Shown one piece after another: positions 784-38,849 of a stretch of DNA of 41,543 bases (positions within the stretch are counted from its first letter, which is position 1; each line of letters starts with the position of its first letter). The stretch spans positions 1 to 41,543 of IMG/VR virus record IMGVR_UViG_2917413769_000002; one strand, 5' to 3'. The notes under the pieces were generated by a model, which worked only from the letters and a program-made list of their open reading frames with translations, did not search any database and was not told the origin of the DNA. The DNA is from a virus (taxonomy: Duplodnaviria > Heunggongvirae > Uroviricota > Caudoviricetes). A program made the translations under genes and the position numbers.

Positions 784-1577
784 CTCCCAATCACTAAATA
801 GTTATAACGATAAGTAGTTCCTGTTCCTGCAGCTGAAACGTTCGCACCCCATGAGGTGAGGCTCATTGACGCAAAATTTACGCCGGTTGTTGAAGTGTTG
901 GTTGGTAACTGTACAGGGTCACTGATAACACCGAATGCTGCGTATACGGCCGACGTGAACGGGATCGGATAATTACCTGAATTCCCTGAAGTACCATTCC
1001 CTCCAAAATTACCCCACTGAATCATCAAACCGCCCGGAAGTTTCATGTAACCATTTGGTCCAATTGACGATGTGAAGCTGCTCATATCAGGGATCTGATT
1101 TGTGCCTGTTCCTACATCACGTTGCGCGGCGGTTTTTAGACCAAGGTAAGTAAGAACGCTGGGAATATCAGTCTTCCCAATGATATCCCGACCGACCTGA
1201 GTCAGGTCAGTTTGTGCAGCGGTATCAATACCGGTGAAATAAGGAAGCTTATTCGCTCCGGTCGCAAGGGCTGCAAGTGCCGTAAGTGTGGCATCCAGCG
1301 CCTGGAAATCCTTACCGAACGCGACGGTCATCTTGGTAATAAACCCGTTTAAGTCACCATCATCAAGCACATCTTGCCCACTTTTATTCGCGATATATTG
1401 CGCTAGAGAAGCTGCGATAAAACTTGCCTGCCGGATAGCTTTGTTCACCTGCGCACTGGATGCTTTGCCTGCCATGAACCCTGACAGTAAAGCCGGAAGC
1501 GCTTCCCACTCAGCCTGTGACATTACGTTTGCATTTGGATCAAGTGCAAATGCCTTAAAATCATTCTTGTTAGCCAT
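780..1577 (-). CDS. tail fibre protein
   Basis: C-terminal region contains the ...KLPYF...LTQVGRDI... block I recall as conserved in lambda Stf / Mu S-type fibres; last structural gene before Tfa; ATG at 1577 preferred over the TTG at 1595 in the ORF track. Confidence 0.7.
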   Translation of the reverse strand: MANKNDFKAFALDPNANVMSQAEWEALPALLSGFMAGKASSAQVNKAIRQASFIAASLAQYIANKSGQDVLDDGDLNGFITKMTVAFGKDFQALDATLTALAALATGANKLPYFTGIDTAAQTDLTQVGRDIIGKTDIPSVLTYLGLKTAAQRDVGTGTNQIPDMSSFTSSIGPNGYMKLPGGLMIQWGNFGGNGTSGNSGNYPIPFTSAVYAAFGVISDPVQLPTNTSTTGVNFASMSLTSWGANVSAAGTGTTYRYNYLVIGR

Positions 1578-1634
1578 CAGAGTAATACCCCCCAAGCGCC
1601 GGTATCGAAACCGCCGATATATTCGTTATCCATA

Positions 1635-2258
1635 TCAAACCCAAAAAAATTTCGTTCCTTCGGACGGTGTTTCTACCGAAGGTGTTTCAACGTCACCGGC
1701 CCATACGCCAGCTGCTTTAACGGTGAGATAGCCCTGTTTAATAGCGGCGATCAGTTCAAGAGACACATCTGAAATATCAGTCTCAGGGAATACCCAGACC
1801 GAAATCGTCATGTCCTGGTTATCGACGATTTGCATTTTCAGGCCAGAACCTGCTGTCGCAGCGTCAAGAATGGGTGGCAGCGAGTCGTTCCGCCCGTCCC
1901 AGTTGTTAATAGCGATTTTCGCTTTCAGAATGATGCGGTAGGTGTCATCGCTCAGCGACGTATAGCCCGAATCCGGGTCATATGGCCCTTGCCAGACACC
2001 TTGGTCATATCCCAGCCCATCGGTATCCCAGCTGAAATAAACTCCGGAAATAGGCTGGCTGACAATGCGGCTGCGCCCAATCCATAGCCCGAGCGTGTCG
2101 AGCTGCACACCGACAGCTGTATCGATATCGAAAGCAGAGACAAGGCCGCCCATGCTTTTGGAAATATCGATAAGCGGTCGGGTGCTCAGGTCAACGTGAT
2201 CGAAGAATTTGGGCTTGGTCGCGTGGTAATTGGTGATCCTGTCCGTATATTTGCTCAT
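1635..2258 (-). CDS. baseplate protein (P2 gpI / Mu gp48 position)
   Basis: 207-aa ORF directly downstream of the baseplate-J gene with coupled stop/start; synteny V-W-J-I-fibre-Tfa. Confidence 0.55.
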   Translation of the reverse strand: MSKYTDRITNYHATKPKFFDHVDLSTRPLIDISKSMGGLVSAFDIDTAVGVQLDTLGLWIGRSRIVSQPISGVYFSWDTDGLGYDQGVWQGPYDPDSGYTSLSDDTYRIILKAKIAINNWDGRNDSLPPILDAATAGSGLKMQIVDNQDMTISVWVFPETDISDVSLELIAAIKQGYLTVKAAGVWAGDVETPSVETPSEGTKFFWV

Positions 2259-20776: not shown

Positions 20777-21380
20777 TCAGCCCATGAATTTTTTGTAGAT
20801 ATCTGCGACCTCATGCGGGGACAGGTTCGCCGCGTCGGCTTTGGCTGCCTCGTCCATATTGGTGAACGATTCGAAAATTTTCGGCGCTCCAAGCTCCATA
20901 AGCAGGGTTTCCGGAACCTTTATTCCCTCAGCCTCAAGCAGCTGCGCCGCCTGCAGCGCGGTGTATTTACCATCTACCTTGTGCTTCATCACCTCACGAA
21001 GCACATCACGCTGACGGTCCTCTTCCCCCATAAACACTGCGGCCGAGTCCAAGAGCTTTGGCAAACACCGCAACATCATTGTGCGTTGGTAAAACATCCT
21101 CGACGGTTGTTTTCAGTCCATCAGGGGATTTGGTGACAATCTTTCGCTTCCGAACGTCCAGGCTTTTACCTGCAACGTTGTTAATCTTTTCCATCAGAAC
21201 TTCGCGAGCCTCGGTAAAGGCACGATTAAAGTCGGCGTGTTCCTTGCGCCAGTTGCGGATAGTCGCCTCGTCAATTTCCAGTCGCTGGGCAACCATACGG
21301 TTTGAGATCTTGTTACGGGCCAGAGCCATATCAATAACGATACCGACGTAGGCCTTCTTAAAGCTATTTTTACGGGCCAT
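20777..21380 (-). CDS. terminase small subunit, interrupted by an apparent frameshift (two ORFs 21006-21380 and 20777-21097)
   Basis: N-terminal ORF has HTH-like start MARKNSFKKAY...; C-terminal ORF continues in another frame with 92-nt overlap; G5 run at 21025-21029 (minus strand) is the candidate shift site. Confidence 0.6.
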
Positions 21381-21626: not shown

Positions 21627-22631
21627 TCAGTCCAAATCCATCTCCACCACTTCACCGAACAGGTGACCGTAAACGTCCATTGTGGTTTTGATGTTCGAAT
21701 GCCCAATAAGTCGGGAAACCTTCAGAATATCGACGCCTTTGTTTGCCAGGCGAGATACAGCAAAGTGGCGAAGATGATGGAATCGCTTAATGCCATAGTC
21801 GTTCAGGGTTCTGACGAGAACGCCCTGAGTGCCGTAACTGGTAGCAAGGCATGCGCCGGTAAACTGATTGCAGATAAGAGGCTCAGAGGAACCCAGCTTA
21901 TTTTTATCCAGCAACGCGAAAAGCTCACGCGGCATCCGTACCCGGCGCTCCACTCCTCTTTTCAGCCCCTCATGTATAACGCCGTCAACAACATGCCCCC
22001 GGATGTCGATCCAGTCGGCTGACACGTCGTTATAAGTAACCGCCAGAGCCTCACCGATACGCAGGCCACAAATCCCGAGCCAGCACGCGATACGCTCACG
22101 AACTGGCGCGTTATTCAGTAGCTCCCTGACCGATGATGATGGCGGTATGGTGATGGGTCGACGCTTCCGGCGCGCTGGACGGTCAACAGGGTTAAAAGTG
22201 ATGAGCCGCTTTTCCACCAGCAGGAAGAAAGCCGAACGAATCCAGCGATGGCAGCCGGTGCGAACCGAATCAACGATATCGCGATGGCTGATATGGAGAA
22301 TATTTTTTTCCAGTATCGGCCCGTCTACAGCGAGAAGATCGTGACGGCATTTCGTATATGACGACAGCCGTATGATATTTTTTTCCAGCTTGCCGGCCTG
22401 ATACCCCAGATAAAACAGAATTAACTTTCGGAAAGTCCAGGAATGGTCTATTCCGGTCCAGCTGGCGGTTCGACAATCCAGCTCAATATTCTGTTTTTGC
22501 CAGAAAAGATGTGCGGCATCATCAATATTCTTAAAGATGCGGCGGCGCCCATGACCGGATTTTTCATCCTTCCAGTGGACGTAATATTTTGATTGTCCAT
22601 TGGCATCAGTGGATTCTTTTATCGAAGCCAT
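21627..22631 (-). CDS. tyrosine site-specific recombinase (integrase family) with arm-binding-like N-terminal domain
   Basis: C-terminal catalytic signature R (LRIGEALA), H-x-x-R (HHLRH) and Tyr (…TTMDVYGHL); N-terminus GQSKYYVHWKDEKSGHGRRRIF resembles AP2-like integrase arm-binding domains; ATG 22631 with GAGGA upstream. Confidence 0.75.
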   Translation of the reverse strand: MASIKESTDANGQSKYYVHWKDEKSGHGRRRIFKNIDDAAHLFWQKQNIELDCRTASWTGIDHSWTFRKLILFYLGYQAGKLEKNIIRLSSYTKCRHDLLAVDGPILEKNILHISHRDIVDSVRTGCHRWIRSAFFLLVEKRLITFNPVDRPARRKRRPITIPPSSSVRELLNNAPVRERIACWLGICGLRIGEALAVTYNDVSADWIDIRGHVVDGVIHEGLKRGVERRVRMPRELFALLDKNKLGSSEPLICNQFTGACLATSYGTQGVLVRTLNDYGIKRFHHLRHFAVSRLANKGVDILKVSRLIGHSNIKTTMDVYGHLFGEVVEMDLD

Positions 22632-22695
22632 ACTGAACAATCCTCACTCAAAAAACATTATCAAAGCCACTCGGTGAATGGCTTTTGTAATGAAT

Positions 22696-23427: not shown

Positions 23428-23455
23428 AGAAAAAAAGCCCCGCTATTGCGAGGCT
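23428..23455 (-). terminator. intrinsic terminator at end of lysis cassette
   Basis: minus-strand AGCCTCGC-AATA-GCGGGGCT followed by TTTTTTT; overlaps the Rz stop codon. Confidence 0.65.
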
Positions 23456-24862: not shown

Positions 24863-25477
24863 TTAAATTCTGCGGAAAGCGTACGAAGCGACGCCCTTAC
24901 GCCCTAACTGGCATTCGATTGTGTTTTGCTCTGCGCAGGTGAAGCCCTGCTCTGCAAACCAGCGCCTGATACCTTCATCAGTGAAATACCAGATGTGCTC
25001 GTTCTTTCTGAAATGATGGGAGCGGAGAATGTCTCCGGCATCAGTGAAAATCGGGATCGACACGAAAACGTATTCACTGGCCTGCTGTACCGCCAGCTCC
25101 GGCTCGTCGATGTGTTCCAGTACATCCCACATCGTCAGTGCTCGCCACTTATTGGCGTAGAGATCTGCGAATGCGCCCCGCTCGTTCAGCCAGGCAATAC
25201 CGGCCGGATTAACGTCATACCCAAGCGTTCCCGGTCGGATAGAGACGAACTGACCGGCACCGATACCAACGTCGAGAACAGGGCCGTGAAAATGGCGATC
25301 CACCAGCTCAATACGGGATTGCGTTAAAGCTCTGCCCGTTTCGGTGTCAGCCAGCTGCTGATACTTTGCGAAATACTGCTCGTCATACGGGCGTGATGCC
25401 GGAACGGGGTAACGTCCGATCCCCAGCTCCGGTAAAAATACCAGCCCGCTTTCCAGTTCCTGATAAAACGACTTCAT
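24863..25477 (-). CDS. class I SAM-dependent methyltransferase
   Basis: motif I VLDVGIGAGQF and acidic motif II ...DVLEHIDEPE; ATG 25477 with GAGG upstream; 95-nt overlap with the upstream GT9-like ORF. Confidence 0.7.
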   Translation of the reverse strand: MKSFYQELESGLVFLPELGIGRYPVPASRPYDEQYFAKYQQLADTETGRALTQSRIELVDRHFHGPVLDVGIGAGQFVSIRPGTLGYDVNPAGIAWLNERGAFADLYANKWRALTMWDVLEHIDEPELAVQQASEYVFVSIPIFTDAGDILRSHHFRKNEHIWYFTDEGIRRWFAEQGFTCAEQNTIECQLGRKGVASYAFRRI

Positions 25478-26321
25478 GGAGCCAGGCCTCGAATTTATCG
25501 GAGAAATTTGAAATCCGCTTGTCGCAGTGGTGATCCCATGCTTCACAGCGGCAGTAATTGTCGGGAATTGCCCAGCCAACACGAGAAAGGTCCATCGCCG
25601 GATCGGTTACGATTTCCGGGGCGTTGTGGCCGCCCCGCCCACCAGCAACAACATAGACAGGCGTTCTGTAGGCGATGGCAGCAGGAAGCGCCCAGCCAAC
25701 CGGCGAAACCACTACGGCAGCGTGTTCAATCAGGCGCATCAGCGATTTAAAATTGAGCTGGCCGGAGTGCAGCCGCAGATCCGCTTCGGGAAGTTCGCCG
25801 ACCGCCCACTCTTCCCCCTCCTGCAGGTCAGCCACGCTGATCACACAGAAATGTTTTCGCAGTAACCGGGAGGCCTGCAGCAGATAATCAGGATCAGGGT
25901 TGCGAGAGTCGCTACGCCACTCAGATCGCACTGTTGCCGGGCGGATCACCGCAATCGGCTTTTGGTGGGTAAATTCCGCCGGGCCGAAGGAAGGCAGATC
26001 CAGCGCTGCTGGCTCTACGCCGAACTGCTGGCGCATAGCGTCAAAAATTGAGCCGCGCCGCAGGTGCTGTGGCCCGTAGAAAATGCGCTTTGTCTGGCGC
26101 ATATCCGGTGGCTGCTGGAAAGCGGCTTGCGTCCGGTATTCGTTCTTGCGTTGCGTTCGGAGCGTTGTAAAGCTACGAACGGGCAGAACGGGTAAATCTT
26201 CGTAGATTTCAGGCCAGGCGGTTTTGATGTAACTCCCCGGCGGTAACTGCTTTACGAAAGCCCGCTGGTAGATACTGTCACCCATGCCCAGCATGCCATC
26301 GATAAAAAGAGGAACGTTCAA
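25383..26321 (-). CDS. GT9-family glycosyltransferase-like protein (heptosyltransferase fold)
   Basis: N-terminal ...LFIDGMLGMGDSIYQ... and C-terminal ...VVSPVGWALPAAIAYRTPVYVVAGG... resemble WaaC/WaaF-type heptosyltransferases as recalled; TTG start coupled to upstream stop. Confidence 0.6.
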   Translation of the reverse strand: MNVPLFIDGMLGMGDSIYQRAFVKQLPPGSYIKTAWPEIYEDLPVLPVRSFTTLRTQRKNEYRTQAAFQQPPDMRQTKRIFYGPQHLRRGSIFDAMRQQFGVEPAALDLPSFGPAEFTHQKPIAVIRPATVRSEWRSDSRNPDPDYLLQASRLLRKHFCVISVADLQEGEEWAVGELPEADLRLHSGQLNFKSLMRLIEHAAVVVSPVGWALPAAIAYRTPVYVVAGGRGGHNAPEIVTDPAMDLSRVGWAIPDNYCRCEAWDHHCDKRISNFSDKFEAWLHEVVLSGTGKRAGIFTGAGDRTLPRSGITPV

Positions 26322-27290: not shown

Positions 27291-27711
27291 CTAAAAAATG
27301 CGGACCGCACTAGCACTTTTTTGATTATTTTGAATGCTCACTACGGCGTCCATTTCCAGGCGAACATCCAGCATCGACAGGCAGCCTTCAATGAATCCCT
27401 CGGCAAGCAGCATCTCTATGCGTATCTGCTTTTCGCTTTTCTTCCTGCGCTTCGCCATCTGCCGTTTTGAATACCGGAGAATATAATGCCCGACCAGCAA
27501 GTGATAATCGTATGGGCATTTTTTTTATCAGGCGTGCCATGCAGCCCTCGATAATCAGCCCATCGTCGTCGGTACACATGATCCGCGTTTTGCTGGTTTG
27601 CGGAAGCAGCCCCTTAAAACCAGCAGCGATGGAAGAATAATCAATATTGCATGAATCGCTTGCCGCCCACGCGCCCCACATATCAAGAACCTTTTGCATA
27701 TCACGCATCAT
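27291..27711 (-). CDS. late antiterminator Q (QuuD-type), interrupted by an apparent frameshift (ORFs 27388-27711 and 27291-27500)
   Basis: N-terminal ORF MMRDMQKVLDMWGAWAA...IDYSSIAAGFKGLLP...CTDDDGL is Q-like as recalled; C-terminal continuation ...SMLDVRLEMD... in another frame; T8 run at 27519-27526 is the most likely shift site. Confidence 0.6.
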
Positions 27712-30420: not shown

Positions 30421-30620
30421 CCAATGGAGCTGCCTTCTGGAAAAGGCCTATTCCCATCCCTCTCCGATCTCCCCCCTTACCCCCCTCTTACCTCTCCCTT
30501 ATTCATGTACTAGATAGCTAGTACAATCAGGCGTAAAAAAAGTAAGTGGGTGGTCCCAGCTTCATCAGCAGCTGACGCCTTTAAGTCAGACTGCAACCAG
30601 GCACCTTTAAGCCCGGTATC
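30421..30620. promoter_or_regulatory. candidate origin / early-promoter region with repeats
   Basis: ~50-nt polypyrimidine tract with CTTAC-type repeats (30445-30500), perfect inverted repeat TGTACTAG-ATAG-CTAGTACA (~30488-30510), two CCTTTAAG copies. Confidence 0.35.
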
Positions 30621-30932: not shown

Positions 30933-31193
30933 TCACACCTCGCTTTGCTCTGCGTGACTTGTTCCGCGTAACGTTTCAGGTAGTCCGTCATCAGTGCTTG
31001 GATATAAATCAGGGCGAATTTCATGTGGAATGACCTTCCAGCCCGTCAACTCACAGAGCTGTAATACAAATCGAGGCGGGATAACTGACTTGCTAAACCA
31101 CTGATTTACTGCCTGAGGCGTGATCCCTAACCCTTTAGAGATAGCGCGCTGAGAGAGCAATTCCCCCAAACGAGAGCGAACGATTTCGTTCAT
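30933..31193 (-). CDS. cro: Cro-like / YdaS-family HTH repressor
   Basis: 86-aa ORF divergent from cI; HTH ...ISKGLGITPQAVNQW...; SD GGTGA upstream of ATG 31193. Confidence 0.7.
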   Translation of the reverse strand: MNEIVRSRLGELLSQRAISKGLGITPQAVNQWFSKSVIPPRFVLQLCELTGWKVIPHEIRPDLYPSTDDGLPETLRGTSHAEQSEV

Positions 31194-31200
31194 AAATCAC

Positions 31201-31289
31201 CATCAAGTTAAATTTGATATTGAATGTAATATATCAAGTTTTAATTAACATGCAACACAAACACTTCTCATGTAGACTTGATATCAAGG
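31201..31289. promoter_or_regulatory. OR-like operator region between cro and cI
   Basis: three sites sharing ATCAAG/CTTGAT half-sites: ATCAAGTTAAATTTGATAT (31201-31219), TATCAAGTTTTAATTAACAT (31231-31250), perfect palindrome CTTGATATCAAG (31276-31287). Confidence 0.65.
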
Positions 31290-31345
31290 ATTGCTTTATT
31301 TTTATGCGTGATAATCTTGCGAGTAACCGACAAACTGGGAGAGGT

Positions 31346-31919
31346 TATGGACACCACAAACACGATCAACGAACTGCTAAAAATGAAGGGCTGGACTCAG
31401 CGAGAACTGGCTCGCAGGCTCAATGTCAGCGCCCAATCAGTTCAATACTGGACAACGGGGAAAACATTCCCAAGAGGTAAGCGACTTGCGCGGCTTTCGG
31501 AGATCAGCGGTCTCCCGCAATCATGGTTTCTTGGCGAGAAACAAAGCACGACTTTCCCTGCGGCCGCTGCACCAGATGAGCAGACTGATAGCGTTACTTT
31601 TAAGGTTCTTGATGTTGAATTCAGTTGTGGTGATGGGACGAGTGTAAAGGGGGACTTTGTTGATGTTGTCAGGTCAATAGAACTTGATCCAGAGTACGCC
31701 CGCCAGCTCGTAGGTAATAGACCATTCAAAAATATCGAGATAGGTAATGCTCGTGGGGACAGCATGTGTCCCACTATAGCCCCTGGAGACCTACTATTTC
31801 TCGATAAAACAGTTACATACTTTGATGGTGACGGGATCTACGCTTTCTGTTTTGATGGGGAATGTTATGTAAAAACGCCTGCAAAAGGTTGGCACAAAAA
31901 TAGTGGTCTTATCCGATAA
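31346..31919 (+). CDS. cI: CI-like repressor (HTH-XRE + S24 LexA-like peptidase domain), 3' end frameshifted; intact frame would end at 32025
   Basis: SD GGGAGAGG before ATG 31346; HTH ...WTQRELARRLNVSAQSVQYW...; S24 motif GDSMCPTI; removing one A from the A5 run at 31871-31875 restores ...YVKRLQKVGTKIVVLSDNANY... including the canonical VKRL. Confidence 0.8.
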
Positions 31920-32038
31920 TGCAAACTATCAAGCATGGAATATAGAAAAAGAAGCATTAAACATGCTCTACATCCAGTCAAAAGTAATATCCTCTGTTCC
32001 TTTCAACATCAATAGATTTGGATAATTAATTGATTTAT

Positions 32039-32056
32039 AACGGGCTTGTGCCCGTT
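32039..32056. other. stem-loop AACGGGC-TTGT-GCCCGTT downstream of cI
   Basis: perfect 7-bp inverted repeat; not followed by a clean U-run on either strand, so not called a terminator. Confidence 0.4.
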
Positions 32057-32074
32057 ACCTCGCTGTCTTCGCAT

Positions 32075-32154
32075 ATCATCAAGAAAATAATCAAGTTTAA
32101 CTTGACACAAATCTCATCTGGTCATAACCTCTAATCATCAAGTTAATCTTGATT
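32075..32154. promoter_or_regulatory. OL-like operator region upstream of the early-left operon
   Basis: palindromes CAAGTTTAACTTG (32092-32104) and ATCAAGTTAATCTTGAT (32138-32154) use the same CTTGAT half-site as the cro-cI operators. Confidence 0.6.
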
Positions 32155-32202: not shown

Positions 32203-32589
32203 ATGGATACTCTCAATAATTCGCTTAATAAAGCGCAAGCAGTCCTAAGCTCTCTCTTTGAAGCCTGCCACGAAATTGATATTTCTGAGATAGAAACAAA
32301 TCTGTCAGTCATTAATGCTTACTTATGTGATGCCATAGAATCTATTTCCAAAGGCGAAGGTAAGGGGATTACTCGCCCTACAGATAAAGAGTGTGATGAC
32401 GGCTATGATGATATATTTGGTGCGGTTGTCACTGCAGAAAAACGTAAAGAACTTACACATATATATTCTGAGAATTATTTCACAGATAAAGATAGTGACA
32501 ACCCATTGTGCCTTATGGCTTCAGTCATATTTGATTACGTAATAAAAATAAATGGCGAATTAAAAGCCATCAAAGAAAAGCTCAACTAA
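32203..32589 (+). CDS. hypothetical acidic protein, first gene of early-left operon
   Basis: 128-aa ORF in an AT-rich segment downstream of the OL-like operators; not N-like (acidic, no Arg-rich motif). Confidence 0.45.
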   Translation: MDTLNNSLNKAQAVLSSLFEACHEIDISEIETNLSVINAYLCDAIESISKGEGKGITRPTDKECDDGYDDIFGAVVTAEKRKELTHIYSENYFTDKDSDNPLCLMASVIFDYVIKINGELKAIKEKLN

Positions 32590-32774: not shown

Positions 32775-33602
32775 ATGAAAAAGGTTATTTTCGCTGTTCT
32801 GATTTCCGCCGCCGCTGCTGGCCTGACTGGCTGCGATCGTGTCGAACCCGGCAACGTAGGTATCAAGGTGAACAAGCTGGGCGACGACAAAGGCGTTGGT
32901 GAGGTTGTCGGCGTTGGCCGCTACTGGACCGGCTGGAACACGGAGGTCTACATCTTCCCGACCTTCAAACAGATGAAAACCTACGACGACGCGTTCAATT
33001 TCCAGATGAGCGACGGTACGACAATCGGTTATCACATCGGCGTGGCGTACAAAGTTGATCCAACCAAAGTTACCACCGTTTTCCAGACCTACCGGAAAGG
33101 CGTGGACGACATTACCGATACCGACCTTCGACAGAAGATCGCCGATGCGCTTAACCGTCTTGCCAGCCGCATGAGCACCGACAAGTTCATTGATGGTGGT
33201 AAAGCGGATCTGCTGGAAAGTGCCCTGAAAGAGATCCAGTCCGACATGGGGCCGGTCGGCATTCAGGTTATTAGCCTCTCCTATGTTGGCCGTCCGGAGT
33301 ACCCACCGACTGTTATCGACAGCATCAACGCCAAAGTCACCGCCAACCAGAAGACGCTGCAGCGCGAGCAGGAGGTGAAACAGCGTGAAGCTGAAGCCAA
33401 CATGCTGCGCGCGGAAGCGGATGGCCAGGCAGACGCAAAACTGAAGCTGGCAGAAGCCGAAGCGAAATCTATCCAGATCCGTGGGCAGGCCATGCGTGAA
33501 AACCCCGAGGTGCTGCAGCTGGAAGCCATTAACAAATGGAACGGCACCCTGCCGCAATACATGACCAGCGGCGCTGGCACTCCATTTATCCAGGTTAAGT
33601 AA
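32775..33602 (+). CDS. SPFH / band-7 (prohibitin-like) domain lipoprotein
   Basis: N-terminal lipoprotein signal ...AAAAGLTGC; SPFH-like core followed by an Ala/Glu/Lys-rich coiled-coil (...QREQEVKQREAEANMLRAEADGQADAKLKLAEAEAK...). Confidence 0.7.
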   Translation: MKKVIFAVLISAAAAGLTGCDRVEPGNVGIKVNKLGDDKGVGEVVGVGRYWTGWNTEVYIFPTFKQMKTYDDAFNFQMSDGTTIGYHIGVAYKVDPTKVTTVFQTYRKGVDDITDTDLRQKIADALNRLASRMSTDKFIDGGKADLLESALKEIQSDMGPVGIQVISLSYVGRPEYPPTVIDSINAKVTANQKTLQREQEVKQREAEANMLRAEADGQADAKLKLAEAEAKSIQIRGQAMRENPEVLQLEAINKWNGTLPQYMTSGAGTPFIQVK

Positions 33603-35484: not shown

Positions 35485-35667
35485 ATGAGTACAGACTTCA
35501 TGACAGAACAAGAGGTTTCTGAGTTGCTTCAGAAAAAAAGAACAGCTTTATATAACCTCAGAAAAAAACATGGTTTCCCTGAGCCAGTCCTCACCCACCC
35601 AGCGAGATATAGCCGCAAAGCCGTGGAAAACTGGATCAGTGCAGGCGGAGTTAACCGAGCTGTTTAA
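35485..35667 (+). CDS. AlpA / excisionase-family HTH protein
   Basis: 60-aa ORF; position next to and convergent with the integrase. Confidence 0.6.
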   Translation: MSTDFMTEQEVSELLQKKRTALYNLRKKHGFPEPVLTHPARYSRKAVENWISAGGVNRAV

Positions 35668-36820
35668 CGTGCCAGAGGATTTTATCAGCATACAGCTCGT
35701 AAGCTGCTTTCTGCTCAGGTAACCAGTCGTGTTTATTATACACGGCCATCACCCCGCCAAGCTCGTGCCCCAGCATCTTTTCGGTGACATGGGGCATCAC
35801 CCCTTCTGCAGATAAATTCGTTACCAACGAACGGCGGAAATCATGCGTTCGCCACTCCGGGATATCGATTTTACCTCTCAATTTTTTCATATAGAGATTT
35901 GACGACGAACGGTCTATAGCGCGGTCAAGCGTCTGTCCGGGAAACAGCACAGAGTTCCCACTATTCAGCAGCCGCTCAACATAGGGTTTAACCTGGTCAA
36001 AGATAGGCCGTCGGATGACATTTCCCATCTTGGAATGCTCAGATGGAGTCGTCCAGATCAGATCATCCATATTGAACTCATCCGGCGTTGAAAGCCGCAG
36101 CTCAGATAAGCGTGGTCCCCAGAGCAATAGCAGCTGGTGCAGCACTTTATTGGAGGAGACGATCTTGTTATTTTCCAGTGCCAGCCAAACCTTCGCCAGT
36201 TCGGTGTATGTTAACACCCGCTCACCGACGTCAGGCTTCTTGCCTATGGTTTTCACACTTAACTTCATCAGCTCGCATGACGGAACCAACTGCCGGCTGA
36301 TGCACCAGTTAATTACCGAGCGTAGCTGTAACAGCAGAACGCGCGCTTTCTTTTTGTTCAGGCTTTCCTGTTTATCGAAAAAACGCACCCATGCAGAAAC
36401 CGGTACATTCGCCACTGGCGCATCTTCAAATTGTGTGTACATCGTGTTGTACACGACCGATTTATAAAGCGTCTGGGTGTTGGGCTTCAGACCGGATGCA
36501 TACTTATCCCACCACTGATCAAGGCATTCTTTGAGTGTCAGCTCGCCATCTTCACGGGCAAAATAATTTTTGGGGTTCACACCCTTCGTGTACAATGCGC
36601 GCATCTCACCGACGATAACCCTAGCGTCCTTGAGGGATGTCGAAGGATAGCGGCCAACCGTCAGGCGCACTGGTTTACCGTTCCATCGATAACGATACTG
36701 AAAAGTGATTGTGCCAGTTGGCGTGATCCGGGCACTGAGACCATCACCATCGGTGATTTCTGGTGCCGCAGAATACGGTTTACCGTTGATGCTCCGTAGT
36801 TTAGTGTCGCTGAGTGCCAA
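35651..36820 (-). CDS. int: P4-type tyrosine integrase
   Basis: C-terminal catalytic region ...WRTHDFRRS...GHELGGVMAVYNKH...; N-terminal ALSDTKLRSI...KPY... block typical of P4-family integrases; likely TTG start at 36820 (ORF track extends to 36931). Confidence 0.8.
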   Translation of the reverse strand: MALSDTKLRSINGKPYSAAPEITDGDGLSARITPTGTITFQYRYRWNGKPVRLTVGRYPSTSLKDARVIVGEMRALYTKGVNPKNYFAREDGELTLKECLDQWWDKYASGLKPNTQTLYKSVVYNTMYTQFEDAPVANVPVSAWVRFFDKQESLNKKKARVLLLQLRSVINWCISRQLVPSCELMKLSVKTIGKKPDVGERVLTYTELAKVWLALENNKIVSSNKVLHQLLLLWGPRLSELRLSTPDEFNMDDLIWTTPSEHSKMGNVIRRPIFDQVKPYVERLLNSGNSVLFPGQTLDRAIDRSSSNLYMKKLRGKIDIPEWRTHDFRRSLVTNLSAEGVMPHVTEKMLGHELGGVMAVYNKHDWLPEQKAAYELYADKILWHVKQLG

Positions 36821-37015
36821 TGCGCTATATCCTGTACACAAGGGTTTCAGGCATTCTGTACTCAATCTGTACTCAATGGCAAGTGAACGAACGCAAATAT
36901 CAGCATAAACAAGCTGGTAAATGATGAACAAAGACGCACTTACATCTTGATGTCAAAGCAGTAAAGGCGGTAGAATCAGCATCACGGTGAACAACCAAAA
37001 ACATCGCCGATCAAT

Positions 37016-37090
37016 GTCCCCTTAGTTAAATGGATATAACGAGCCCCTCCTAAGGGCTAATTGCAGGTTCGATTCCTGCAGGGGACACCA
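37016..37090 (+). tRNA. argW: tRNA-Arg (anticodon CCU), argW-like
   Basis: 75 nt: 7-bp acceptor stem GTCCCCT/AGGGGAC, T-arm GCAGG-TTCGATT-CCTGC, anticodon loop CTCCTAA, 3' CCA encoded. Confidence 0.9.
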
Positions 37091-37250: not shown

Positions 37251-37802
37251 ATGCTCACCGTTAAGCAGATTGAAGCAGCAAAGCCGAAAGAAAAACCATA
37301 CCGCCTTCTCGATGGTAATGGCCTGTACCTTTATGTTCCTGTATCCGGGAAAAAGGTATGGCAGCTTCGCTACAAGATTGACGGTAAGGAGAAAATCCTG
37401 ACCGTCGGAAAATATCCGCTTATGACTTTGCAAGAGGCAAGGGATAAGGCATGGACCGCGAGGAAAGATATCTCGGTTGGCATAGATCCGGTAAAGGCGA
37501 AAAAGGCTTCGTATAACAACAATTCCTTTAGTGCGATTTACAAGGAATGGTACGAGCATAAGAGGCAAGTATGGTCAGTCGGCTATGCGACTGAACTTGC
37601 CAAAATGTTTGACGACGACATTTTACCTATCATCGGCGGTCTTGAAATTCAGGATATTGAGCCGATGCAACTTCTTGAAGTAATCCGCAGATTTGAAGAT
37701 CGCGGTGCAATGGAGCGAGCCAACCTTACTATATCTCGAATAGCACAAAGCCTTGCAATCCAGTGCAAAGCTTTGTGTGTCTCAGTTTTGTCTTACGCTT
37801 AA
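37251..37802 (+). pseudogene. truncated P4-type (IntS-like) integrase, N-terminal ~180 aa only
   Basis: starts 161 nt downstream of the tRNA 3' end in the same orientation; N-terminal KPYRLLDGNGLYLYV...GKK.W block; ends where AT-rich DNA begins. Confidence 0.7.
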
Positions 37803-37822: not shown

Positions 37823-38849
37823 TTATTTGATGCATTTAATTTTAGATTTTCTTTTCAAAATTAAGCCGCATGGAATCTCAATATATTTATAGCTTAAGTA
37901 TGAAGACAGAAGAATAAGTACTATAATTGGTACAACCATCAATAATTTATCTAACATATAGATATCACATAGCTTATTTATTATACATATAATGATCACA
38001 TGCGAAAGATATGTCGAGTATGACCAATCTCCAAGTTTAGATGCAATTCTTGATATAGTGCTATTGCCAATATTGTTTTCAAGACATAAAGCGGAAACAA
38101 TTAAAGCAGCGCAAGGGATTCCAATTTGGAGAAGTCTTTTTGATTCATTGCTAAAAAATATACTTATCAGTGATAATACGGATATTGTTAGTGCAGTTTT
38201 AACACCGATATTTCTGAATAGCCCATTATTATAACATATAGCTATTACCCCCCCCCATAACAAACTCAAACAACAGTTCATCATTATAGAAAAGAAATAC
38301 AGTAGACTCATTATTGCCAAGCCATGAAAACAAATTCATTACAACAAGAGGAATTAGAATACAGCAAATTTTTTTGTTGTTTTCAGGGAATAACAGAGAA
38401 ATAAATACGCACGTATAAAATAGCATTTCAAAATTAAGAGTCCACCCAACCGTTAGGGTTGGAATATACCAACCTATCTGTTGATTCATTACCGGAATAA
38501 AAGCAAGGCTTTTTAATACATTATTTAATCCAATCTCAGCAAACGGAATAACTCCGTGAAAATTGTATGATATTACCACTACCAGCAATGTGTAGAACCA
38601 ATATGCAGGAATAATTCTTACCATCCTATTGAGAGCAAATGACGTAGGTGTAATATTATTTTTCGATATTGACTTATAAATAATAAAGCCACTTATGATA
38701 AAAAACATATCGACACCATTGCCAGCCTTAAGTGCAATAGTGTGCATCAATTTGGATGATGCAGACCATTGAAACATGACTTGAGAAATATGATGATAAA
38801 CAACTGCCCAAGCAGCAAGTGCTCTTAAGATTTGTATTGACTTAATCAC
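37823..38849 (-). pseudogene. acyltransferase-3 family membrane protein (O-antigen acetylase-like), split by a frameshift at a G9 tract
   Basis: ORFs 38229-38849 and 37823-38320 overlap at a C9 run (38247-38255, plus strand); G8 would fuse them into a ~350-aa acyltransferase_3-like protein; strongly AT-rich region. Confidence 0.65.

What the first reader, a model, noticed from the sequence alone, without database searches (positions are those of the whole stretch)
31346..32025. cI repressor frameshifted inside the S24 peptidase domain
As given, cI ends at 31919 with a non-conserved tail (…KTPAKGWHKNSGLIR). Removing one A from the A5 run at 31871-31875 yields …GECYVKRLQKVGTKIVVLSDNANYQAW… to a stop at 32025, recreating the canonical catalytic-Lys VKRL motif and the conserved C-terminal strands of LexA-type repressors. 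Either the assembly has an indel or the repressor has lost its C-terminal dimerisation/autocleavage region, giving a non-inducible or poorly repressing CI.
Basis: seen in the sequence. Interest (0 to 1): 0.5.

Follow-up and report, generated by a model that had tools for sequence, protein, structure and literature searches.

The report
Sequencing-error frameshift in prophage cI
The broken phage repressor gene is really in the given sequence, but it is almost certainly a homopolymer miscall from an Ion Torrent draft assembly, because another assembly of the same strain has one A fewer and an intact gene.

Summary
A CI/LexA-type repressor ORF (31347-31919, 190 aa) leaves its frame just after the A5 run at 31871-31875. 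Removing one A gives a 225-aa protein ending at 32025. That protein is about 80% identical end to end to intact CI repressors of Klebsiella, E. coli and Stx phages, and it doubles the Peptidase_S24 score.

The frameshift is very probably not biological. The window is contig PDIL01000012.1 of Escherichia sp. E1130, an Ion Torrent single-end assembly (PMC6639607). A second assembly of the same strain (VATL01000008.1) and two independent read-set assemblies carry A4 and the intact 225-aa gene.

Over the 40.1 kb shared with VATL01 there are no substitutions and seven single-base differences. All seven are an extra base in a window homopolymer of 5-9 bases. The five that lie in genes (baseplate wedge, a 200-aa late gene, antiterminator Q, cI, an acyltransferase) all break a gene that is intact in the other assembly.

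No homologue shares the short C-terminus, and homologues are in frame at this site, so programmed frameshifting is excluded. The verdict is an assembly artefact in an ordinary prophage repressor, of low interest.

The parts
31347..31919 (+). cI-like ORF as it stands in the window: 190 aa, equal to WP_240782933.1. It has an HTH_3 domain (residues 8-53), a Cys94-Gly95 candidate cleavage site, Ser139 in GDSM and Lys176, followed by a 14-residue out-of-frame tail.
31871..31875 (+). A5 homopolymer that carries the extra base. It is A4 in VATL01000008.1 and in the Logan assemblies of SRR6148301 and SRR8835199.
31876..32025 (+). Out-of-frame C-terminal 49 codons plus stop of the repressor (RLQKVGTKIVVLSDN...SSVPFNINRFG*), conserved in all full-length homologues.
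31347..32025 (+). Full extent of the true cI gene. With one A removed it encodes 225 aa, identical to WP_138211442.1 / TLI72923.1 of the same strain.
30933..31193 (-). Divergently transcribed cro-like HTH gene (86 aa, PF15943 YdaS-type HTH), which forms the immunity switch with cI.
31203..31217 (.). Operator-like palindrome TCAAGTTAAATTTGA in the cro-cI intergenic region.
32091..32105 (.). Perfect operator-like palindrome TCAAGTTTAACTTGA downstream of cI, upstream of the next early gene (32203-32589).
32138..32152 (.). Second perfect operator-like palindrome, TCAAGTTAATCTTGA.
32038..32057 (+). 8-bp GC-rich stem-loop (TAACGGGC-TTGT-GCCCGTTA, about -13.7 kcal/mol for the 50-nt context). It begins 13 nt after the repaired stop codon, which is consistent with the gene ending at 32025.
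27519..27526 (.). T8 run, T7 in the other assemblies. It breaks the antiterminator Q gene (138 aa, PF06530) into ORFs 27388-27711 and 27291-27500 on the minus strand. Same class of artefact.
21025..21029 (.). C5 run, C4 in VATL01. It breaks a 200-aa late gene into ORFs 21006-21380 and 20777-21097 on the minus strand.
1643..1649 (.). A7 run, A6 in VATL01. It breaks the 226-aa Phage_Wedge1 baseplate gene on the minus strand.
38248..38256 (.). C9 run, C8 in VATL01. It breaks a 341-aa Acyl_transf_3 gene into ORFs 38229-38849 and 37823-38320 on the minus strand.
23430..23436 (.). A7 run, A6 in VATL01, intergenic.
30535..30541 (.). A7 run, A6 in VATL01 and SRR8835199, intergenic. SRR6148301 shares A7 with the window.

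Best explanation
The locus is the ordinary immunity repressor of an argW-integrated prophage of Escherichia sp. E1130. It has an N-terminal HTH_3 DNA-binding domain, a Cys-Gly self-cleavage site and a C-terminal S24 Ser139/Lys176 autopeptidase and dimerisation domain. It is transcribed divergently from a cro-like gene across operator palindromes.

The frameshift at 31871-31875 is not a property of the organism. It is a homopolymer over-call, A5 instead of A4, that the Ion Torrent-based draft assembly PDIL01 carried into its consensus. The true gene is 31347-32025 minus one A, giving a 225-aa intact repressor that presumably represses the lytic promoters and is cleaved after RecA activation.

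Shown here: the gene's identity, the site, the intact allele in other assemblies of the same strain, the sequencing platform, and the assembly-wide pattern of +1 homopolymer calls. Inferred: that reads covering this site mostly say A4, and that the intact protein is SOS-inducible.
For: 1. Source and platform. The 190-aa product occurs on a single contig on record, PDIL01000012.1 of GCA_004745435.1. PDIL00000000 is strain E1130, sequenced as single-end Ion Torrent reads of 35-400 bp at 50x and assembled with MIRA and SPAdes (PMC6639607). Ion Torrent indel errors run at about 1.5% and are largely tied to homopolymers (PMC3902414).

2. Same strain, intact gene. The exact repaired 225-aa sequence exists as TLI72923.1 / WP_138211442.1 from Escherichia sp. 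E1130, on the 231,013-bp contig VATL01000008.1 of GCA_005781065.1. Logan assemblies of SRR6148301 and SRR8835199 also encode the 225-aa form.

3. Pattern of differences. Over window 1454-41543, compared with VATL01, there are 0 substitutions and 7 one-base differences. Every one is an extra base in a window homopolymer of 5-9 nt, at 1643, 21025, 23430, 27519, 30535, 31871 and 38248. A random insertion would lengthen a run of 4 or more with probability about 0.019. Five of the 13 window runs of 7 or more bases are affected.

4. Direction of the error. All 5 differences that lie in coding sequence break an ORF in the window that is intact in VATL01 and in relatives: Wedge1, the 200-aa late gene, Q, cI and the acyltransferase.

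5. Conservation. All close full-length homologues that were listed (223-231 aa) and aligned continue VKRLQK...SSVPFNINRFG, and none has the short tail.
Against: No reads were inspected, so the A5 call cannot be disproved directly for the DNA that was sequenced for PDIL01. I could not establish how VATL01 was produced; no paper was found. It might not be a fully independent data set, or it might have been frameshift-corrected. The assignment of SRR6148301 and SRR8835199 to particular strains of the BioProject is my inference, not verified. A5 is a short run for an Ion Torrent consensus error at 50x; errors are commoner at 7 bases or more. NCBI's pipeline accepted the 190-aa ORF as a protein (WP_240782933.1).
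Confidence: 0.9

Rival explanations
1. A genuine +1 insertion arose by replication slippage in the culture used for PDIL01. CI would then keep the HTH, Ser139 and Lys176 but lose the last 49 residues, including the C-terminal beta-strands of the S24 fold. The result would be an unstable, non-dimerising, non-cleavable or weak repressor in a decaying prophage.
For: The base is present in a deposited assembly and was annotated as a protein. Prophage repressor and late genes do decay. Q, a late gene and a baseplate gene are also broken in the window, and that would make loss of CI survivable.
Against: It would require seven independent insertions, all +1, all in homopolymers, with no substitution in 40 kb relative to another assembly of the same strain. 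The platform is known for exactly this error. Read-set assemblies give A4. An unrelated chromosomal acyltransferase is hit in the same way. No other contig on record encodes the 190-aa form.
Confidence: 0.07
2. Programmed recoding: a +1 ribosomal slip of tRNA-Lys on A-AAA-A, or transcriptional slippage on the A run, makes full-length CI from the shifted gene and sets a fixed ratio of short to long repressor.
For: In principle, an AAA Lys codon followed by A allows re-pairing in the +1 frame (sequence).
Against: Homologues are in frame at this site with varied codons (GTAAAGAGG, GTCAAAAGA, GTCAAACGA), so no slippery site is conserved. The same prophage in other assemblies has A4 and is in frame. 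There is no rare or stop codon in the A site and no stimulatory element. A5 is too short for efficient transcriptional slippage (established knowledge).
Confidence: 0.01
3. The error lies the other way: VATL01 and the Logan assemblies under-call homopolymers, and the window is correct.
For: The Logan SRR6148301 contig does carry one under-call of its own, T2 against T3 at 26207, where it disagrees with both NCBI assemblies.
Against: At all five coding sites the shorter run is the one that keeps the reading frame open and matches homologues across many genomes. Three assemblies agree on A4 at cI.
Confidence: 0.02

Closest known systems
CI repressors of lambdoid-type enterobacterial prophages, for example repressor CI of Klebsiella phage ST16-OXA48phi5.3 (QBP07978.1), Escherichia phage phi467 (CUW01243.1) and Stx2-converting phages (BCI49772.1)
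   Same: 78-81% identity over residues 3-225 of the repaired protein. Same length (224-229 aa), same HTH_3 + Peptidase_S24 architecture, same divergent cro-like neighbour, and an identical C-terminal ...YIQSKVISSVPFNINRFG.
   Different: The window copy has one extra A after codon 176. Otherwise only ordinary sequence divergence.
LexA / UmuD / lambda CI superfamily (MEROPS S24 self-cleaving Ser-Lys peptidases)
   Same: GDSM with the catalytic Ser and VK(R/K)L with the catalytic Lys align to UmuD' structures 1AY9, 1I4V and 1UMU. There is a Cys-Gly candidate cleavage site, as in UmuD (invariant columns; the UmuD site is from established knowledge).
   Different: Only distant sequence similarity to the solved members (E about 3e-4). 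Self-cleavage was not tested.
Homopolymer indel errors in Ion Torrent or 454 draft genomes, which produce false frameshifts and pseudogenes
   Same: Ion Torrent platform. Every discrepancy is a single-base length change in a homopolymer, there are no substitutions, and genes are broken that are intact elsewhere.
   Different: Nothing notable. The A5 and C5 sites are shorter runs than those most often affected.

Membership tests
CI/LexA-type phage repressor (HTH + Peptidase S24) | N-terminal helix-turn-helix DNA-binding domain | tested here: met
   PF01381 HTH_3, residues 8-53, 35 bits against a cut-off of 23.
CI/LexA-type phage repressor (HTH + Peptidase S24) | C-terminal S24 domain with the Ser-Lys catalytic dyad | tested here: met
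   Ser139 (GDSM, invariant) and Lys176 (VKRL) align to the GDSM and VKKL of UmuD'. PF00717 scores 57.6 bits after repair.
CI/LexA-type phage repressor (HTH + Peptidase S24) | Complete S24 fold, including the C-terminal strands after the catalytic Lys | tested here: not met
   As the window is written, the ORF leaves the frame at residue 177 and the Pfam match stops at profile position 81 of 116. The feature is met once one A is removed, and it is met in the other assembly of the same strain.
CI/LexA-type phage repressor (HTH + Peptidase S24) | Ala-Gly or Cys-Gly self-cleavage site in the linker | tested here: inconclusive
   SCGDG at residues 93-97, with S93, G95 and G97 invariant among 15 homologues. 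The position fits, but cleavage itself is not shown.
CI/LexA-type phage repressor (HTH + Peptidase S24) | Immunity-region context: divergent cro-like gene and repeated operator palindromes | tested here: met
   Cro-like gene 30933-31193 on the minus strand. TCAAGN5CTTGA-type palindromes at 31203, 32091 and 32138: 6 matches in the window against 1.28 expected, 4 of them around cI, namely these three and a weaker one at 31284.
CI/LexA-type phage repressor (HTH + Peptidase S24) | RecA*-stimulated autocleavage and prophage induction | not testable with these tools
   Needs a cleavage assay or mitomycin C induction.
Programmed ribosomal frameshift or transcriptional slippage site | The out-of-frame arrangement and the slippery sequence are conserved among homologues | tested here: not met
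   All aligned homologues and three other assemblies of the same prophage are in frame. The codons at the site vary.
Homopolymer sequencing or assembly artefact | A flow-based sequencing platform prone to homopolymer length errors | tested here: met
   PDIL00000000 is Ion Torrent single-end data (PMC6639607). The error mode is described in PMC3902414.
Homopolymer sequencing or assembly artefact | The variant is absent from independent assemblies of the same strain or prophage | tested here: met
   A4 in VATL01000008.1 (same strain name) and in the Logan assemblies of SRR6148301 and SRR8835199.
Homopolymer sequencing or assembly artefact | Discrepancies are confined to homopolymers, with no substitutions, and they recur along the contig | tested here: met
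   7 of 7 differences are +1 in runs of 5-9 bases, with 0 mismatches in 40.1 kb.
Homopolymer sequencing or assembly artefact | Read pile-up shows the consensus call is not supported by most reads | not testable with these tools

The most novel reading that the evidence does not exclude
The A5 allele, together with the Q, late-gene and baseplate frameshifts, is real in the E1130 stock that was sequenced on Ion Torrent. That would be a prophage caught just after multiple slippage hits, in which loss of the CI C-terminal domain is tolerated because antiterminator Q and structural genes are also broken. The truncated HTH-plus-partial-S24 protein would act as a non-cleavable immunity factor.
Probability: 0.04. 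Interest if true: 0.25.

Novelty: not a real feature. Interest (0 to 1): 0.05.

Why it matters
The main value is as a caution. The 190-aa 'repressor' (WP_240782933.1), and at least four other broken genes in this 41.5-kb window, should not be read as pseudogenes, as prophage decay or as a non-inducible CI variant. They are what an Ion Torrent homopolymer over-call looks like. Anyone scanning this assembly, and probably the 15 sister assemblies PDHW-PDIK of the same BioProject, for frameshifts, pseudogenes or phase-variable tracts should expect about one false +1 homopolymer call per 6 kb (7 in the 40.1 kb compared here). If the frameshift were real, it would still be only an ordinary inactivating mutation in a well-understood class of repressor.

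Tried and rejected
- Near-identity DNA searches of 31200-32100 against the phage and complete E. coli genome collections found nothing, so no near-identical copy could be compared there.
It did not find the strain.
I reached the same contigs by looking up neighbouring window proteins instead.
- No paper mentioning VATL00000000 was found, so the platform of the second assembly is unknown.
- The sigma-70 consensus scan found no promoter in the cro-cI region, and only an uninformative terminator-like site.
- Programmed +1 frameshifting was considered and rejected, because neither the site nor the out-of-frame arrangement is conserved.
- An under-call in the other assemblies was considered and rejected, because the shorter runs are the ones that keep all five genes open.
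- P0038, a 156-aa homologue, was checked as a possible shared short form. It ends elsewhere (…LDNLL) and does not share the tail.

Full report
**What is in the sequence.** There is an A5 run at 31871-31875. The product has an HTH_3 domain at residues 8-53. It also has a Peptidase_S24 match that breaks off at profile position 81 of 116, scoring 32.9 bits. Removing one A joins the ORF to the +1 frame and gives a 225-aa protein that ends at 32025. The S24 match then runs to profile position 106 and scores 57.6 bits.

**Is it a disrupted, formerly intact gene?** Yes.
- The repaired protein matches annotated CI repressors of Klebsiella phage ST16-OXA48phi5.3, Escherichia phage phi467 and a set of Stx2 phages over residues 3-225, at 78-81% identity and E = 2e-120 or weaker.
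- A nucleotide alignment with three of these genes needs one internal gap, placed exactly in the A run. The window reads GTAAAAACGCCTG; the homologues read GTAAAGA-GGCTG, GTCAAAA-GATTA and GTCAAAC-GACTT, each encoding V-K-R-L.
- In a 15-sequence protein alignment, every full-length homologue (222-229 aa) continues VKRLQK...LSDN...YIQSKVISSVPFNINRFG. None has the tail TPAKGWHKNSGLIR.
- Differences from homologues in the 49 shifted codons are mainly synonymous: 23 against 7, 23 against 9, 20 against 10, and 9 against 3. That frame was therefore under protein-level selection until very recently.
- Alignment to UmuD' structures identifies Ser139 (GDSM) and Lys176 (VKRL) as the catalytic dyad. Lys176 is still encoded in the as-is ORF, and divergence begins at residue 177.

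**Where the window comes from.** An exact look-up finds the 190-aa product on one contig only: PDIL01000012.1 of GCA_004745435.1, named Escherichia sp. E1130 (WP_240782933.1). The window is identical to that contig. The exact repaired 225-aa sequence is also on record, from the same strain name (TLI72923.1 / WP_138211442.1), on a 231,013-bp contig. By looking up neighbouring window proteins I retrieved that contig, VATL01000008.1 of GCA_005781065.1. I also retrieved contigs assembled by Logan from the read sets SRR6148301 and SRR8835199. All three encode the intact 225-aa repressor.

**Comparison of the assemblies.** I pieced together VATL01 from loci L036, L020 and L028, which cover window 1454-41543 (40.1 kb). 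Over that span there is no substitution, and there are seven one-base differences. Each is an extra base in a homopolymer of the window:

| Window position | Window run | VATL01 run |
|---|---|---|
| 1643 | A7 | A6 |
| 21025 | C5 | C4 |
| 23430 | A7 | A6 |
| 27519 | T8 | T7 |
| 30535 | A7 | A6 |
| 31871 | A5 | A4 |
| 38248 | C9 | C8 |

- A random single-base insertion would lengthen a run of 4 or more with probability of about 0.019, so seven out of seven is not chance.
- Five of the 13 window runs of 7 bases or more are affected.
- Five differences lie in coding sequence. In each case the window allele breaks a gene that is intact in VATL01 and in relatives: the Phage_Wedge1 baseplate gene (226 aa), a 200-aa late gene upstream of the large terminase-like gene, antiterminator Q (138 aa), cI, and a chromosomal Acyl_transf_3 gene (341 aa) outside the prophage.
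- The SRR6148301 contig agrees with VATL01 at cI and Q, and it shares the window's A7 at 30535. It also has a private T2-for-T3 at 26207 that breaks another gene, which suggests it too derives from homopolymer-error-prone reads.

**Sequencing platform.** The genome announcement for PDIL00000000 states that E1130 was sequenced as single-end Ion Torrent reads of 35-400 bp at about 50x. The reads were assembled with MIRA and SPAdes, followed by reference-guided and manual finishing (PMC6639607). Ion Torrent reads have about 1.5% indel errors, largely at homopolymers (PMC3902414). The pattern above is the textbook signature of that error mode.

**Conclusion on mechanism.** The organism almost certainly has an intact, ordinary CI/LexA-type repressor. 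It sits divergent from a cro-like HTH gene (30933-31193, minus strand). Operator-like palindromes of the form TCAAGTTnnnnCTTGA lie in the cro-cI spacer (31203) and twice downstream of cI (32091, 32138), ahead of the next early gene. A strong stem-loop begins 13 nt after the repaired stop. The prophage spans roughly 360-36931 of the window and is integrated next to tRNA-Arg(CCT) at 37016-37090. That the intact protein represses lytic promoters and is cleaved at Cys94-Gly95 on SOS induction is inferred from family membership. It was not tested.

**Rivals.**
- A real frameshift mutation would need seven independent +1 slippage events with no substitution, in one stock of a strain whose other assembly lacks all of them. 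I give it about 0.07.
- Programmed +1 frameshifting or transcriptional slippage is excluded in practice, because neither the slippery site nor the out-of-frame layout is conserved.
- Under-calling in the other assemblies is contradicted, because the shorter runs are the ones that keep all five genes open.

**Limits.** I could not see reads. I could not establish the platform or read source of VATL01. I could not verify which strain the two SRR runs belong to. The decisive test is a read pile-up or Sanger read across 31850-31900.

**Verdict.** The gene identification and the proposed repair are right. This is not a real biological feature, and interest is low.

Noticed in passing
window 27291-27711 (- strand), T8 run at 27519-27526: The antiterminator Q gene (PF06530, 138 aa in VATL01 and the Logan assemblies) is split into 107-aa and 69-aa ORFs by an extra base in a T8 run. 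This is the same artefact class as cI. Taken at face value, the prophage would falsely appear to lack both CI and Q.
   Followed up: yes
window 20777-21380 (- strand), C5 run at 21025-21029: A 200-aa late gene just upstream of the 538-aa terminase-like gene is split into overlapping 124-aa and 106-aa ORFs. It is intact (run of 4) in VATL01 and in many related prophages.
   Followed up: yes
window 1577-2258 (- strand), A7 run at 1643-1649: The Phage_Wedge1 baseplate gene (226 aa in VATL01) is truncated to 207 aa by an extra base. It was not listed among the called genes for the PDIL contig.
   Followed up: yes
window 37823-38849 (- strand), C9 run at 38248-38256: A chromosomal Acyl_transf_3 gene next to the prophage is split at a C9 tract, which is C8 and intact (341 aa) in VATL01. 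A C8 tract inside an acyltransferase could in principle be a real phase-variable switch, but here it fits the same sequencing-error pattern.
   Followed up: partly
window 31203-31217, 32091-32105, 32138-32152: Three 15-bp operator-like palindromes (TCAAGTTnnnnCTTGA family) flank cI: one in the cro-cI spacer and two perfect copies 47 bp apart downstream of cI. They suggest a second operator region that controls the leftward early operon. The pattern has 6 matches in the window against 1.28 expected.
   Followed up: partly
window 35651-36931 (-), 37016-37090 (+), 37251-37802 (+): The prophage integrase abuts tRNA-Arg(CCT). Just beyond the tRNA lies a 183-aa ORF resembling the N-terminal arm-binding part of a second P4-type integrase, which is probably a remnant of an earlier element at the same tRNA site.
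   Followed up: no
window 21627-22640 (- strand): A 334-aa Phage_integrase-family tyrosine recombinase sits in the late region, between the lysis genes and the terminase genes, far from the attachment-site integrase. The arrangement is conserved in many related E. coli prophages. Its role was not examined.
   Followed up: no
window 32775-33602 (+ strand): A Band_7 (SPFH) family protein of 275 aa is encoded in the early-left operon downstream of cI. An identical protein occurs in at least 28 blocks of the contig collection, in prophages with different immunity regions. It may be a moron or superinfection-exclusion candidate.
   Followed up: no
window 26207-26209; locus L031 (Logan SRR6148301_424): The Logan assembly of SRR6148301 has T2 where both NCBI assemblies have T3, which truncates the 312-aa gene 25383-26321. 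That read set therefore shows homopolymer errors of its own, in the opposite direction.
   Followed up: partly
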